NCBI GenBank assembly: GCA_045159875.1
Contig: CP067995.1
Coordinates: 1,152,001 to 1,216,000, forward strand
Length of the DNA stretch: 64,000 nucleotides
DNA from: a cyanobacterium endosymbiont of Rhopalodia gibba
GTDB lineage: Bacteria > Cyanobacteriota > Cyanobacteriia > Cyanobacteriales > Microcystaceae
Reading direction: 5' to 3'
Below, piece by piece: positions 3,001 through 9,000 of the stretch (position 1 is its first letter; each line of letters opens with the position of its first letter). Position numbers: made by a program.

Positions 3001-6000
3001 AAAGTTGGTTCCCATTTGTCACTTATTCGGTTTAACGCGAGGGACTCCTATTGATCATTACTATCTGAATCAATTTGTTGAAGAAATTAGAGGAGAAATT
3101 AAAGGAAAGATTTTAGAAATAGGAGGAACTCCCAAAGATCGAGATTTTTATGAAGTGAATGCCCATGATTCTTATCAAGTACTGAATTTAGAACCCGGGT
3201 TAGGAATAGATATTGTGGGGGATATTCATGATCCTTCCGTAATAGAAACAGAATCAGTAGATTCAGTGATTATTTTTAACGTTTTAGAACATTGCTATGC
3301 TCCTTGGATAGCGGTTCAGAATATTTATAGATGGCTAAAAATTGGAGGAAAATATTTTGCAATGGTCCTCAATGCTGTCAGAATTCATGGGACTCCTATT
3401 GATTACTGGCGACCTTTACCCGATGGAATGAAGTATTTATTTAAAGATTTCTCTAAACAGAAATTATACATTTATGGTAACCTCATCACTCTTATTGCTA
3501 GTTATCATGGTATCGCAACTGAAGAACTGTCTTCAGAAGAAATCAATAATTTTAATCTCGATTATCCTGTTACTACCTGTATCGTAGCAGAGAAATGACT
3601 AGCATTATTGGGTAGTTATTTAAAACTGTTTTTCTCTTAATACCTAAGCCATGAATAATTTTAATTTTTCTTTTATTCCTGAAGTTTCTGTCATCTTAGC
3701 GACCTATAATCGAGCTGAATATTTAACAGGATGTATTCAAAGTGTCCTCAAACAAACTTATCAAAATTGGGAATTTATTATTGTTGATGATGGCAGTCAA
3801 GATCATACCTTTGAGATTGTCAATCCTTATCTTGAAAAATTTTCTAATATTCGTTATTTAAAACATCAAAATAGAGGAGCAGCCCTATCAAGAAATGTAG
3901 GGATTAAAGCCTCTTTTGGAGATTATATAACTTTTATTGATAGCGATGATCAATATCTTTCTAATCACTTACAATCAAAACTAGACTTTTTTGAAAAATA
4001 TCCAGAAATTGAGTTGATTGTAGGGGGATTTAAGTCTAATCAAGAAACATGGGTTACAGACTATTATAATCCTGACCAAAAAATTAATATCCAAAACTGT
4101 GTTATTTGTCCGACCTTGTTTGGCAGAAGATATGTCTTTTTTGAATTAGAAGGTTTTCAAGATATTCTCTATGGAGAAGACACAGACTTATGGGAACGTG
4201 CTGGTAAAAAATTTAAAACACAAAAAATTGTCGAGCCTTTAACTTATCTGTATACTAGAGCAGCCGATAGTGTTTCAAGACAGTTTTCTCATGACTTTTA
4301 ATGATCCTCGGCGTAATAAGCAATTACGAATGTTAATGCAAAAACTGGGGTTATCTGACACCTCACAGATTAATTGGTCATGGTTAGATCTGGCCTTGAC
4401 TCATCCTACTGTTTCCAGGGAAAAAAACTATCAACAGCTGGAATTTGTGGGGGATTCCGTAGTAAGACTTGCAGCCGCTGAAATACTTTTAGAAACCTAT
4501 CCAAATGAGTCTGTAGGGGAATTTGCTGCCCTACGTTCTATGATGGTCAGCGATCGTACTTTAGCCCAATTTGCCGAAAGTTTTGGGTTAGAACGCTATC
4601 TTCTGATGGCTGATCATGTAGTTAGAGATGAAGCCGGAAGGGTTTCTCGTTTAGCAGATGCCTTTGAAGCGGTTTTAGGTGCACTATATTTGAGTACCCA
4701 AACTATGAGTTTAGTGCGTCCCTGGTTAGACGATCTTTTGAGAGCCAAAGCTGAAGAAATTCGACAGGATCCGGCTCGTCAAAACTATAAAGATGCACTC
4801 CAAGAATGGACTCAGGCTCAGTATAAACTTCTACCAGAATATAGAGTTCAGAGACTTAACTCTGTACCGACTAGTCAACCCAGTTTTTTGGCTGAAGTTT
4901 GGCTCGTAAACCGTAAATTAGGATCAGGACAAGGTCGTTCTAAAAAAATGGCTGAACAAGCTGCGGCTCAAGAAGCTTTTTTTAAGTTCGTTAATGTTTG
5001 TGATACTTAAGTAAATTCAACTAGGAGTTGAAACTCCAAATTTTCTTTTTAAAGGCAACAGAGTGATTCAAATTAATGAAAAAAGTAGTCAATCTCTGAT
5101 GAAGTGAAGCTTTAAGCCAACTATCACTGAGGAAGTACGACCCACTCCTAACAGCAATTTAGGTATATTTATAAGGTTATAACGCAAAAAAAAATTATAT
5201 AAGCAAAACAATTAAGTAATTGTTTTGCTTATGTTGAGAAATCCAAACTTTTATGAAAATCATCCAAGCATACATAACAGAGGCTGTGCAGTTCAAGTAA
5301 ATAAGTAGGTTTAGATAAGCGTAAAATAGAAAAATAGTTAGGAAAGAGTGATGACTAAATACCAGTTTACCTAAAAATTCAGTTAACAAAATTAGAAGAG
5401 CAAAAACTATCAAAGTAGACTTGCACCTAAAAACCTTTTCCAGCACAAAAACAAGAGCAGAAATATTATGTCTAAAGTCTAAAGTCTAAAGCCAAAAGTA
5501 CAAAAAGTTCAAAAAATTAAAAAATGCAATTAGAAAAACAACTTTTAGACAAATTCTTCAGAAAAGATAAAAATTGTGGGCTCCTCTGAGATATGAAAGA
5601 ATAAGAACTTGGAAATAAAAAAATATAAAATATTTTGAAAGGCTCTAAGAAAAGGATAAAAAAATCTTATATTACTCAGTAATTACCTAAGTTTTCTAGA
5701 AAAGAGAAAAGAGTCAAATTAACTTCTGGAGGAATCTGTAAAACTCTTAAAAAGGGGACCTAAAATAGAAAATAACAAAAGTGGAGACGATAATTGCTCT
5801 ATGTACTAAGGAAACCCCTAAAAAAGTAAAAAAGTTTTAGATAAAGAGATAGATAAAGTTAAAAATATAGCCAAGACAAAGAAATAGATACGTGAACTGT
5901 TCTTAATAATCATTTATTCTTCAATAGATATAAGTAGTTTAGTTAGAGCAAAACTGAAACAATAATAAAAAAATGATGTTTATTTTTTTACTAAGCTTGT

Positions 6001-9000
6001 AGTCCAAAACTAAATATAATAGAAGGGGAATAGTATCAAATGAATAAAATTTATAAAATTGCTAGTAGGATATTTGAAGATAAATTTAATTTAGTAAAGA
6101 TTCGTTTAATACAGTTTTTAGTCAATGAAAAATTTAAATTTAATATCAATTAAAAACATTTAAAATAATTGAAATTTACTTAAATATATAGGTATCAAAT
6201 AATTTACGTTATTAACGTTTACTTAAAGCTACTTACTTAGTATATTATCTAATATAAATATCCCTTTATATAGGAATAACTACAAAACTTCTGTAAATTT
6301 AGACAAAACATTACTTAGGATGAATTAGATTTTATCAAATCAATTTTATTAGGCAATCATTAGATCATACGCTAATGGCAATCTATATAGATTAGGAGAG
6401 TTTTTATCACAGCAATAATTTATTGCTAATGAACAGTGCTCTAGAATGATTTTTAGTTTATTGACTGGGTTAGTGCTGTCCAAAATTAAAAAAGCTACCC
6501 AAAAGTATTGAGGGAGTCGCTCATGAAGATCTAAAAGTTAGATGAGAGTTAAGCTCCATGTGGGTTAGCGGTAACACCTGCCAGGAGAACGTAAGTTAGT
6601 ATCAAGAAGTTAACTAAAATATATAGAGAAGTTATGGGAAAATAGGAGAGTGAATTGAGTCTCATCTAGCGTACATATAATATGATTCGTTTATGGTTAC
6701 ATTTTGTATTGACGACTATTTTAATTAGCCTAAGTAGTTTAATTGTCGCTTGTAATTCTCCAACTCCACCAACAGAATTTGCCCCTGATGGAAAGATAGT
6801 TGAAAAAGCGATCATCTTACAACTATCTCAAAACTTCCAGCGTTTGAGCAATCAGTTAAACACGACTCTTCCCCAGCTCAAAATTAATCAAATTCAAGTT
6901 AAGCAACTCGACTCAATTTTAGTCACACAGTTATCCACTTATCACCTTCAGGGAACTTACAATTTAAAATTGATGTTTCCTCGTCAAATAAAAGAACAGA
7001 AAAAGAATCGATTTGACATTTATCTACAACGACAAATAGAAGGGGAAACCTGGCGGTTACTAAAAAGAGAATATAATCTTTCCTATGACACTCCCCAATG
7101 GAAAAGTTATTTAATCAGATAAGAGAATAAAAAGGTCTTGAGTTAGGTGGGTTTTGTCGGATTTTACGAAGTTTACCCATCTCTTTCAAAACGCTTTCTT
7201 AGGGATTGATTCACAAGGGCAGTTACTAACTTCAACTGTAAATAATGTTAATTAACTAAACTGTTTCCCCCGTTGTTGAACATTGATTCAAGGACACCCT
7301 CTCCCCATAACCCTCATACAAAAATGGATTAGAATGTATTAGCCACGGCAAAAAGACATCAACTTTTTCCCTTTAAAAGATTTTGAAGATAGAGGTGACT
7401 AGATCAACCGTGCCGCACTCAAAAGAAAGGTGATAAGCCTCTTCCACTAAGCGATCAGTTACTACAATGCAATCAAGATAAACTTTTTCGAGGATCCTAC
7501 ATAAGTATTAGCCCAGCAAGACGTATCACATATTTTTAAAATCAAAAGATAACTACCCCAAGGTTGTGAGAGGATAGAATGAATTAACTTTTTTAATAAA
7601 TCAGGTTTTTAGAATGGGAGCTCGCTAAAAAAACCTATACTGTCAAGTAAAAATAATCCGGATTGCTGCATCCGAACATCAAGCCGCTAAAAATTAAAGA
7701 AGCATATCTCTCTAAGGAATTACCCGCCAGCACCGTCGGTCGTCTGATAACCTTTATAATAAAATTTTGCAACTGATTGCGCCTAAAGTAGTAACCTTTA
7801 GCTGAATTCAACTTTGCGGAGTGCCCAAATCCTGATAGATTAATTACTCATATCTCAAAGTCTTCTTGTAATTGGTAATTAGCTAATATTTTTACGCCAG
7901 CGATTCGGTAGAAGCGCCAAATCCATAAAACAGAAGTATTAAATGGCCTTGCCATCGCCAATAGTTTCTAGGGACTGAAGATGTTGATATGACAGGAGCT
8001 AACTGCATAACCATATTACAAAATATGAATTGATGTTAACTTATTTATCTTGACCTGTATTGCTCGAAGTGTCTTTCTCTTAACTAAAACAGGGTAGAAT
8101 AAAAAGGTCGTACTCGGTAGAATATTAAGTGATTGAGCGTTACACCATTCCCGAAATGGGGGAACTATGGACAGACAATTATAAGCTGAAAACTTGGCTA
8201 CAAGTAGAGATTGCTGTCTGTGAAGCACAAGCAGAATTGGGTCATATTCCCCGAGACGCAGTAGAAGAGATAAAAGCCAAGGCTAATTTCAATCTTCAAC
8301 GGGTTCTAGAAATTGAGACCGAAGTTCGCCACGATATGATTGCTTTTTTAACCAATGTTAATGAGTATGTAGGAGATGCGGGGCGATATATTCATCTAGG
8401 GTTAACCAGTTCCGATGTCCTTGATACGGCCTTAGCTCTTCAAATGGTGGCCAGTCTCAACTTGATTCTAGAACGTCTAGAAGATTTAGTACAAGTTCTT
8501 CGTTACCAAGCGCAACAGCATCGTGATACTGTGATGGTGGGAAGATCACACAGTATTCATGCTGAACCTATTACTTTTGGCTTTAAATTGGCAGGATGGT
8601 TAGCCGAAGTCTTGCGGAACCGTGATCGTTTAGTAAATCTACGCAATAATATTTCAGTCGGGAAAATTTCGGGGGCAGTGGGAACCTATGCTAACGTCGA
8701 TCCGAGTGTAGAAGCCATTACCTGTCAGAAATTGGGACTTCAACCTGACATCGCTTCAACTCAGGTAGTTTCGCGTGATCGCCATGCTGAATTCATCCAA
8801 CAATTGGCCTTGTTGGCTGCTTCTGTCGAACGGTTTGCGATAGAAATTCGTAATCTTCAACGCACTGATGTCTTAGAAGTCGAGGAATTTTTTTATGAGG
8901 GACAGAAAGGCTCTTCTGCTATGCCCCACAAGCGCAACCCCATCCGTTCAGAACGCTTAACGGGGATCGCTCGTATTATTCGAGGATATACCGTTGCTGC

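What a model noticed while it worked through the whole genome (the two positions that open the first line are those of the whole stretch)
5295..6238. Fossil IS explosion: ~650 decayed insertion elements of 12 families make up 8% of the chromosome
The AT-rich intergenic DNA is a graveyard of IS copies: 937 fragments (656 elements after merging, 235 kb, 7.7% of C1) in 12 families, including IS630, IS982 and ISL3 elements and MITEs. They lie at orthologous sites in the other spheroid bodies, even the most distant one, and preferentially at deletion and rearrangement junctions, so the stem ancestor went through a large IS burst. The place given is one full-length IS630-family relic; the claim is genome-wide.
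Evidence so far: Families from intergenic self-BLAST and consensus building; counts in calls 43 and 46; reversed-genome control gave 3 hits against 937. Transposase identity from real copies: DDE_3, DDE_Tnp_1_3, Zn_ribbon_ISL3/HTH_Tnp_ISL3, HTH_23/32. Same family at the same locus for 11 of 15 elements in G001 and 29 of 40 in G003 loci; 21 relic hits in 200 kb of G007, and same-family relics in about 10 orthologous gaps. 0 hits in 480 kb of free-living G004. Copy number: ISL3 family 124 elements here vs 5 intact copies at 76% identity in G002; IS982 85 vs 1 locus in G002 and 3 in G004. Empty sites: kaiA-kaiB spacer 270 vs 76 bp, cobS spacer about 1220 vs 248-325 bp in G002/G005, six more in call 196. 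Relics [...]
(Added by a program. Inside this text positions count along the whole contig: contig position 1,152,001 is position 1 of the stretch shown here. "Call 12" and the like, gene names such as g00115 and contig names such as C1 are that model's own, and its searches are not shown. The text may have been shortened before it was handed on; [...] marks where a part breaks off. The agent that wrote the report below was given it as the finding of a first reader that could run no searches.)

Follow-up and report, generated by a model that had tools for sequence, protein, structure and literature searches.

The report
Fossil IS burst in diatom endosymbiont
The 'junk' DNA of a nitrogen-fixing cyanobacterial endosymbiont of diatoms, described in print as having lost its mobile elements early, holds about 650 decayed jumping-gene copies that all inserted in one ancient period, before these symbionts diversified and apparently before they lost carbon fixation.

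Summary
Confirmed independently. A de novo library finds 939 fragments, about 660 elements and 241 kb (7.9% of the chromosome, 17% of non-coding DNA); reversed and shuffled controls give 1 and 0 hits. I count 11 families, not 12: five IS630, two ISL3, IS982, IS701, one MITE and a four-helix-bundle cassette that may not be an IS. Copies are one age class (about 65% pairwise identity in every family). In the most distant spheroid body, 42 of 47 relics sit at the same site, family and strand (null 6.6). The closest free-living relative has 5 hits in 1.98 Mb, and 26 sites look empty there. So the load arose on the stem and was dead before the radiation. Corrections: no enrichment at rearrangement junctions, and only a modest one at large losses (16 of 31, odds ratio about 4). 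New: insertions mostly missed genes that are now dead, and RuBisCO decayed much later, so the expansion preceded loss of carbon fixation. Whether host restriction triggered it is not shown (about 60%). Published counts are 2-22 per genome. My look-ups in the scan's notes found no earlier report of this.

The parts
5296..6240 (+). Full-length IS630-family relic (family IS630a, 144 elements genome-wide), with terminal inverted repeats; dead (many stops and frameshifts)
   Evidence: Covers consensus 1-933; consensus matches intact IS630 of G019; same site in G003 (79%), G001 (76%) and G004 (first 203 bases); deleted together with its flanks in G006
5359..5639 (+). Remnant of the N-terminal HTH half (orfA) of the IS630 transposase, frameshifted
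   Evidence: tblastn of intact G019 orfA on the real copy, E 1e-6
5980..6093 (+). Remnant of the DDE half (orfB) around the C-terminal catalytic motif
   Evidence: tblastn of intact G019 orfB on the real copy, 50% identity, E 2e-8
4270..5010 (+). Left flanking gene (RNase III-like; name recalled from the sequence, not tested); intact
   Evidence: ORF list; its orthologue in G002 lies 15,392 bp and 12 ORFs from the orthologue of the right flanking gene, against 1,671 bp here
6241..6437 (+). Remnant that aligns to the far end of the 15.4-kb G002 interval, starting 3 bases after the IS end: the IS sits at a 14.7-kb length difference
9533..10102 (-). IS982-family relic (81 elements genome-wide)
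   Evidence: family 79-84% identical to IS982 copies of G002 and G007; PF13612 hits in 32 places of G000
10102..11481 (+). Near full-length ISL3-family relic (ISL3a, 118 elements); keeps a 144-aa open frame at 10274-10708, the longest in any relic
   Evidence: same site in G001 and G006 (84%) and G004
11505..12350 (-). Second IS630a relic
   Evidence: DDE_3 hit
19447..19697 (+). IS630b relic, internally deleted
   Evidence: family 71% identical to an intact IS630 of G009
19829..20590 (+). IS701-family relic (49 elements); with the IS630b piece it fills a gap that is 17.8 kb in G002
   Evidence: same site in G001, G003, G006 and G004
39716..39979 (.). Two IS982 end fragments in opposite orientation
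   Evidence: matched in G004
48238..48359 (.). MITE of about 185 bp (86 elements; 8-bp target duplication signal)
   Evidence: matched in G004
53818..56752 (.). Cluster of IS982, IS630b, IS630 (1.1-kb family) and ISL3a fragments
60677..61674 (.). Four-helix-bundle cassette relic, ISL3a and IS630b fragments
62903..64000 (+). Near full-length ISL3a relic (runs 76 bases past the window end)

Best explanation
The repeats are dead bacterial insertion sequences. SHOWN: on the stem lineage, after the split from the closest free-living relative sampled (G002), at least ten IS/MITE families reached 645 or more copies. They inserted by ordinary transposition (terminal repeats, target duplications, empty sites), mostly into spacers between genes that were still maintained. 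All activity stopped in about the same period; the copies then decayed with a strong G/C-to-A/T bias and were trimmed by deletion, and the daughter lineages inherited them in place. About a quarter of the decay on the G000 line predates the G000/G004 split. RuBisCO and carboxysome genes decayed far less than the IS copies and share almost no changes between G000 and G004, so carbon fixation was lost after the IS era and probably after that split. INFERRED: the trigger was early host association (bottlenecks, weak selection against insertions, no supply of new elements) in a symbiont that still kept its carbon-fixation genes, as in 'Nostoc azollae' or periplasmic Richelia today. The elements contributed to some large losses and at least one inversion, but most visible gene decay happened without them.
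For: Counts and controls. Family identity through intact relatives. One age class: pooled paralogue identity 0.644-0.689 in all 12 library members; leave-one-out identity 0.762-0.781 with spread close to binomial, no copy above 0.88. Stem origin: 42 of 47 G004 elements in syntenic gaps match family and strand in G000, null mean 6.6, maximum 17 in 5,000 shuffles; orthologous copies 69.9% identical against 63.8% for non-orthologous, higher in 35 of 36 pairs, stem share 0.24-0.25. Low load in relatives: 5 library elements in 1.98 Mb of G002; closed G007 has 10 DDE_3, 5 ISL3 and 1 IS982 matches. 26 of 273 gene pairs adjacent in both genomes hold a relic in G000, nearly all with a shorter G002 spacer. 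Target duplications: MITE 0.60 against 0.42 (n=25), ISL3a 0.50 against 0.36 (n=10), IS982 about 0.69 against 0.41 (n=6). Order of events: 5 IS inside 306 gene remnants spanning 179 kb; of 34 resolved insertion points 26 spacer, 5 intragenic, 3 boundary, where 61% of aligned DNA is ex-coding. rbcL: 11% change at G/C second positions and 2.9 frameshifts per kb against about 40% G/C change and 8-18 per kb for IS; 4 of 225 second positions share a change in G000 and G004 (P about 0.006 if dead since the IS era).
Against: Nothing here shows that the ancestor was host-associated during the expansion. Free-living Crocosphaera watsonii WH8501 has 1,211 transposase ORFs (PMC3247675, passages) and carries many intact copies of one of these families. 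Few insertions fall in genes, which fits a selected, possibly free-living genome. 56 of 90 IS-holding intervals could not be resolved and may hide gene disruptions followed by deletion. Older copies may lie below detection, so 'one age class' firmly bounds only the young side. On the like-for-like frameshift clock (8-15 per kb) many pseudogenes (median 9, 90th percentile 17) are about as old as the IS. G002 is a draft of about 80 contigs, sampled at 38%; G004 was sampled at 32%; there is one outgroup only. The RuBisCO test rests on 225 sites and alignable parts, and the small-subunit label is by position only.
Confidence: 0.6

Rival explanations
1. Frozen standing load: the free-living ancestor was already IS-rich, like C. 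watsonii WH8501 or Microcystis, with fast turnover keeping copies young; host restriction only stopped transposition and purging, so all copies look the same age. No symbiosis-driven burst.
For: Free-living relatives in the same order reach 220-1,211 transposases (PMC3247675). The IS701 family is abundant and intact in WH8501. Insertions are mostly in spacers and RuBisCO was still maintained.
Against: All three free-living genomes of the same genus have low loads (61-75 transposases in PMC11131595 section 13). Ten families expanded together, and the oldest pseudogenes are about as decayed as the IS, which ties the IS era to the start of genome decay.
Confidence: 0.3
2. The IS drove most of the genome reduction and rearrangement through recombination between copies.
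For: 16 of 31 length differences of 2 kb or more hold a relic, logistic coefficient 1.52 +/- 0.50, stratified odds ratio 3.7; 3 of the 4 largest do, including this locus. One 7.8-kb inversion is bounded by two inverted ISL3a relics.
Against: No enrichment at gap level (coefficients -0.13 +/- 0.50 and -0.21 +/- 0.44). 15 of 31 large differences have no relic and 8 are clean joins. Matching IS on both sides of broken adjacencies in 8 of 138 against 5.5 expected. Target duplications survive around full-length copies, as expected for simple insertions. Longer lost spans would keep a fragment by chance, and gains in G002 are not excluded.
Confidence: 0.2
3. Transposition went on in separate lineages after the radiation, and much of the load is lineage-specific.
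For: 5 of 47 G004 elements have no match in G000; only 47 G004 elements face 199 G000 elements in the same gaps.
Against: No young copies in G000. G004 gaps are shorter (272 against 451 kb) and its copies more decayed, so loss explains the asymmetry. Where G006 lacks this locus, the flanks are gone too.
Confidence: 0.07
4. Artefact of aligning AT-rich, low-complexity DNA.
For: Permissive self-BLAST gives thousands of hits on reversed DNA.
Against: Library controls give 0-1 hits; profile searches give 0 on reversed DNA; consensus sequences match intact transposases end to end; positions are shared between genomes.
Confidence: 0.01

Closest known systems
Published IS remnants in spheroid bodies: Kneip 2008 (PMC2246100, passages), Nakayama and Inagaki 2017 (PMC5638926, passages), Abresch 2024 (PMC11131595, section 13 and supplement), Abresch 2026 (bioRxiv 10.64898/2026.03.19.712447, parts 1-2 of 5 and passages)
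   Same: All transposases are broken; IS630, ISL3 and IS982 fragments are listed; extinction was early; gene order is stable (420 of 423 gaps syntenic between G000 and G004).
   Different: They report 18-22 IS (2017) or 2-8 fragments (2024, Supplemental Table 2) per genome, read the non-coding DNA as degraded gene remnants, and conclude that spheroid bodies depart from the proliferation model. Here there are about 650 relics, shared by position, so the elements were not lost: they died and stayed.
IS fossil record of Wolbachia (Cerveau 2011, PMC3205602; abstract and section 15)
   Same: Degraded IS copies used to date past expansions through pairwise divergence.
   Different: Wolbachia has 52-171 IS, live and near-identical copies, and an old peak at 10-15% divergence. 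Here there are no live copies and a single peak near 35% divergence, their simulated 'single ancient burst' pattern.
'Nostoc azollae' 0708 (Vigil-Stenman 2015, PMC4369082; abstract) and periplasmic Richelia (bioRxiv 10.1101/2025.03.25.645212; passages)
   Same: Nitrogen-fixing cyanobacterial symbionts with a large IS load in the transitional stage (970 locations, 14.3% in N. azollae); the summed consensus lengths here are 591 kb.
   Different: Those loads are recent and recognisable, and pseudogenes cluster near them. Here the load is ancient, and recognisable pseudogenes rarely contain an IS.
Crocosphaera watsonii WH8501 (PMC3247675; passages)
   Same: Close free-living cyanobacterium with over 1,200 transposase ORFs; holds an intact IS701-type relative (72-76% identical) of one fossil family.
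   Different: Free-living and active; it is the model for the rival explanation, not a symbiont.

Membership tests
IS630 family (five fossil families, including this locus) | HTH plus DDE_3 transposase, often in two frames | tested here: met
   Consensus and real copy align to intact IS630 ORFs; DDE_3 hits on real copies of IS630a, IS630b and F12; the 1.1-kb family matches an HTH_33 IS630 ORF; F8/F9 only weakly (E 3e-9)
IS630 family | Terminal inverted repeats and TA target duplication | tested here: met
   Inverted ends with TA at both boundaries in the end profiles; TA rule recalled
ISL3 family | Zn-ribbon, HTH and DDE_Tnp_ISL3 transposase | tested here: met
   Pfam on window 10274-10705; 18 PF01610 matches in G000; 73% nt to intact G007 ISL3
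ISL3 family | GG-starting terminal repeats, 8-bp target duplication (recalled) | tested here: inconclusive
   GG boundary seen; 8-bp duplication signal z=2.75 on 10 copies at the expected offset
IS982 family | DDE_Tnp_1_3 transposase, inverted repeats, short target duplication | tested here: met
   32 PF13612 matches; 79-84% nt to copies in G002 and G007; duplication signal on 6 copies
IS701 family | IS701-type transposase between matching inverted repeats | tested here: met
   Terminal-repeat scan found a 1.26-kb multi-copy element, 72-76% identical to the consensus; its ORF matches NF049921 at E 2e-57, below the whole-protein cut-off because it is a half
MITE | Short, non-coding, terminal inverted repeats, target duplication | tested here: met
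   About 185 bp, inverted ends, 8-bp duplication 0.60 against 0.42, n=25, best of 480 offsets; mobilising partner not found
IS or MITE (for the four-helix-bundle cassette) | Inverted repeats at both ends or a transposase | tested here: not met
   Left end resembles the ISL3a end; no matching right end, no transposase; encodes PF05635
Host-restriction IS proliferation (textbook endosymbiont model) | Copy number far above free-living relatives | tested here: met
Host-restriction IS proliferation | Expansion after the start of host association | not testable with these tools
   Bracketed only between the G002 split and the radiation
Host-restriction IS proliferation | IS cause gene inactivation, deletions and rearrangements | tested here: inconclusive
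   5 of 34 resolved insertions intragenic; modest excess at large losses; none at rearrangements; one clear inversion

The most novel reading that the evidence does not exclude
Spheroid bodies preserve a complete, datable record of the opening phase of an endosymbiosis: a short explosion of ten or more IS families (about 0.6 Mb when full length) in a newly captured cyanobacterium that still fixed carbon, a synchronous extinction, and only afterwards, separately in each host lineage, the loss of RuBisCO and photosystems. The relics then serve as a neutral clock and as hundreds of presence/absence markers for ordering every gene loss, and some still recombine.
Probability: 0.35. Interest if true: 0.85.

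Novelty: new variant of a known kind. Interest (0 to 1): 0.68.

Why it matters
Two recent papers treat spheroid bodies as an exception to the model of early IS proliferation because annotation finds almost no mobile elements. The proliferation, or at least a tenfold load, is still there as fossils and explains a sixth of the non-coding DNA. The relics give a neutral clock that orders events in an emerging nitrogen-fixing organelle, and they let the claim that IS drive early reduction be tested directly. Here that claim gets only modest support. The same search can be run on other low-density symbiont genomes that are called IS-free.

Tried and rejected
Permissive all-against-all BLAST as a count: rejected, too noisy on AT-rich DNA. 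Profile search of the whole genome at default filters timed out; it was run instead on the unannotated 1.18 Mb and added 67 hits, about 10 kb, with 0 on reversed DNA. Sensitive gap-by-gap search of G000 elements in G004: 95 of 199 against 41 for the wrong strand, too noisy to use. Enrichment at rearrangement junctions: not found. PF01710 found nothing in the five spheroid bodies. A DNA search with a real IS701 copy found no intact relative in the free-living genomes among the 40 relatives searched; the terminal-repeat scan did. Domestication of the window ISL3a frame: not supported, no comparable frame at the G004 site and mostly deleted in G003. No long stretches of G001, G003 or G006 were analysed; their shared sites rest on a few loci and on match coordinates. 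No expression or read data were used.
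Full report
Setting. The window is G000:C1:1152001-1216000, in a 3.06-Mb, 34% GC chromosome with about 53% coding DNA by my own ORF calls. 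The relatives fall into four reduced genomes (G001, G003, G004, G006) and three free-living ones of the same genus (G002, G005, G007). G002 is the closest free-living genome and is collinear with the start of the window.

The locus. Window 5295-6238 has about 210 BLAST matches in the genome. Its consensus (933 bp, 176 fragments) has inverted ends and aligns over both halves of an intact IS630 that has several copies in G019 (Pfam and NCBIfam on the intact ORFs). The real copy keeps broken traces of both halves. It lies at the same site in G003 (79%) and G001 (76%) and G004; G006 lacks window 5096-6390, flanks included. In G002 the flanking genes are 15,392 bp and 12 ORFs apart, against 1,671 bp here, and the first alignable remnant begins 3 bases after the IS end.

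Genome-wide count. A de novo build gave 14 consensus sequences and 235,784 bp; two pairs were duplicates. The 12-member library finds 939 fragments, 673 elements and 240,783 bp, 7.87% of C1 and 16.7% of non-coding DNA; only 124 bp overlap called genes; the reversed genome gives 1 hit, shuffled and complemented intergenic DNA 0 and 1. Consensus sequences re-voted from first-half copies find 119, 91, 28 and 34 hits in the second half against 1, 0, 0 and 0 reversed; this is only partly independent, as the scaffold came from the whole genome. 420 elements have 200 bp or more and 175 have 500 bp or more; at E<=1e-15, 525 remain. Profile searches add about 10 kb and missing middles about 9 kb, so 7.9% is a floor and about 8.5% is plausible. 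Against: permissive raw self-BLAST is noisy, and merging is approximate.

Families. IS630 type 305 pieces in five families (F9 and F8 are halves of one, 12 adjacent pairs), ISL3 136 in two, MITE 86, IS982 81, IS701 49, and 16 copies of a four-helix-bundle (PF05635) cassette. The IS701 family was named through a terminal-repeat scan, which found a 1.26-kb multi-copy element in C. watsonii WH8501 and T. erythraeum, 72-77% identical. This gives 11 families, 661 elements, 645 without the cassette. Target duplications are detectable around full-length copies: MITE 0.60 against 0.42 (n=25, best of 480 offsets), ISL3a 0.50 against 0.36 (n=10), IS982 about 0.69 against 0.41 (n=6). 19 elements are nested in another family, in mixed directions. 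The longest stop-free stretch in any relic is 147 codons.

Age. Pooled paralogue identity is 0.644-0.689 in all 12 library members. Leave-one-out identity is 0.762-0.781 in the seven largest, with a spread of 0.022-0.028 against 0.018-0.019 binomial (MITE 0.043 against 0.032) and no copy above 0.88. G and C changed at about 39% of sites, A and T at 18%. Older copies could be below detection.

Placement on the tree. In 800 kb of G004 (32%) there are 54 elements, 0 on reversed DNA. 420 of 423 gaps are syntenic with G000; of 47 elements in them, 42 have the same family and strand in the G000 gap (null mean 6.6, maximum 17 in 5,000); 2 lay in non-syntenic gaps and 5 could not be placed. Orthologous pairs are 69.9% identical against 63.8% for non-orthologous pairs on the same columns, higher in 35 of 36, so about a quarter of the decay on the G000 line came before this split. 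In 1.98 Mb of G002 (38%, 10 contigs) there are 5 library elements; a draft of about 80 contigs cannot hide hundreds of copies at its breaks (inference). Closed G007 has 10 DDE_3, 5 ISL3 and 1 IS982 matches. Of 273 gene pairs adjacent in both G000 and G002, 26 hold a relic in G000, for example gaps of 1,858 against 278 bp, 1,219 against 34 bp and 1,158 against 112 bp.

Junctions. More junction gaps hold a relic (26 of 273 conserved, 55 of 137 deletion, 31 of 67 rearranged), but per kb they are equal (0.46, 0.42, 0.45), and with non-IS length as covariate there is no effect. At finer scale, 16 of 31 length differences of 2 kb or more hold a relic (coefficient 1.52 +/- 0.50, stratified odds ratio 3.7), while 8 are clean joins without one. 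For rearrangements, 8 of 138 broken G002 adjacencies have the same family in the same orientation on both sides, against 5.5 by chance (P=0.16). One case is clear: a 7.8-kb pnp-queF segment between two inverted ISL3a relics is inverted in G000 and G003 and in the G002 order in G001, G004 and G006. With one outgroup, gains in G002 are not excluded.

Order of events. 306 G002 genes without an intact G000 orthologue have remnants spanning 179 kb, and only 5 IS lie inside them. Of 90 IS-holding intervals, 34 were resolved: 26 spacer, 5 intragenic, 3 boundary, although 61% of the aligned DNA is ex-coding (P about 1e-5); 56 were unresolved. The ccmK-ccmM-rbcL region (named) lies in two gaps of 3.4 and 3.2 kb with no relic. 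rbcL differs from G002 at 11% of G/C second positions with 2.9 frameshifts per kb, ccmM 21% and 5.6, chlB 14% and 2.0, where live genes show 9% and 0.9. IS copies show 18 per kb against their consensus and 8-15 against intact transposases. The 144 pseudogenes measured have a median of 9 and a 90th percentile of 17, so many are about as old as the IS and RuBisCO is among the youngest. G000 and G004 share changes at 2 of 119 rbcL and 2 of 106 small-subunit second positions (label by position), below the live baseline of 3.9%, while five of the other 17 testable remnants share 8-11%. I infer that the IS era overlapped the start of gene decay and ended before RuBisCO was released.

Mechanism. Shown: insertion by transposition, one age class, stem placement, decay in place. 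Inferred: trigger by early host association (about 60%) rather than a standing load in an IS-rich free-living ancestor (about 30%); C. watsonii WH8501 shows that the latter exists (PMC3247675, passages).

What is in print. Kneip 2008 noted transposase pseudogenes and unexplained AT-rich stretches (PMC2246100, passages). Nakayama and Inagaki 2017 counted 22 and 18 IS (PMC5638926, passages; seven supplements searched for three family names with no hit; one .doc supplement could not be read and may hold their list). Abresch 2024 lists 2-8 fragments per genome and proposes early loss of all IS (PMC11131595, section 13 and supplement). The 2026 preprint repeats this for a larger set and calls it a departure from the model (parts 1-2 of 5 and passages; its supplements are closed and may bear on this). 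PMC12903740 and PMC11070190 had no occurrence of the terms; PMC12377750 mentions only host transposons (passages). Searches found no report of a large fossil load; the library lacks most subscription papers, and I did not see the first spheroid-body genome paper of 2014. Precedents for the kind: Wolbachia (abstract and section 15), N. azollae (abstract), Richelia (passages).

Verdict. Real and not found in print; the elements are ordinary, the fossil record and its timing are the finding. The junction claim should be reduced to a modest excess at large losses. Interest 0.68.

Noticed in passing
G000:C1:2367882-2376748 (outside the window): Two inverted ISL3a relics are about 95.5% identical over 480 bp while other copies are about 65%; the 7.8-kb pnp-queF segment between them is inverted in G000 and G003 relative to G001, G004, G006 and G002. 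Dead relics appear to have recombined long after transposition ended.
   Followed up: yes
G000:C1:1948801-1951472 and 2839470-2840891: Two more near-identical inverted relic pairs (98.7% over 667 bp around a 293-aa membrane-protein gene; 99.6% over 271 bp). With the pair above they are the only dispersed near-identical repeats found besides one 5.2-kb duplicate (taken to be the rRNA operons): gene conversion, flip-flop inversion or template switching.
   Followed up: partly
window 60677-61006 and 15 other sites: A 465-bp cassette encoding a four-helix-bundle protein (PF05635) has 16 relic copies of the same age as the IS; its left end resembles the ISL3a terminal repeat; one copy is shared with G004; G002 has 4 intact family members without DNA similarity in the one compared. 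Possibly a passenger on an ISL3-mobilised element.
   Followed up: partly
window 10102-11481: This ISL3a copy is 77.8% identical to the intact G007 element where all others of 300 bp or more are 70% or less, and keeps a 144-aa frame: one of the last active copies or briefly selected.
   Followed up: partly
G000:C1:837029-844089: The carboxysome-RuBisCO operon survives as lightly decayed pseudogenes with no IS; rbcL remnants exist in all five reduced genomes and share almost no changes between G000 and G004, suggesting separate late losses.
   Followed up: partly
G000:C1:2662181-2664130: A DNA cytosine methyltransferase pseudogene is split by an ISL3a relic, one of the few clear gene disruptions.
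   Followed up: no
G000:C2 (6.5 kb): The small second contig holds no library hit.
   Followed up: yes
window 7195-8000: The stretch before the ORF at 8129 aligns to a 297-aa G002 hydrolase-fold gene as a decayed pseudogene without IS (C1:1159195-1160008).
   Followed up: no
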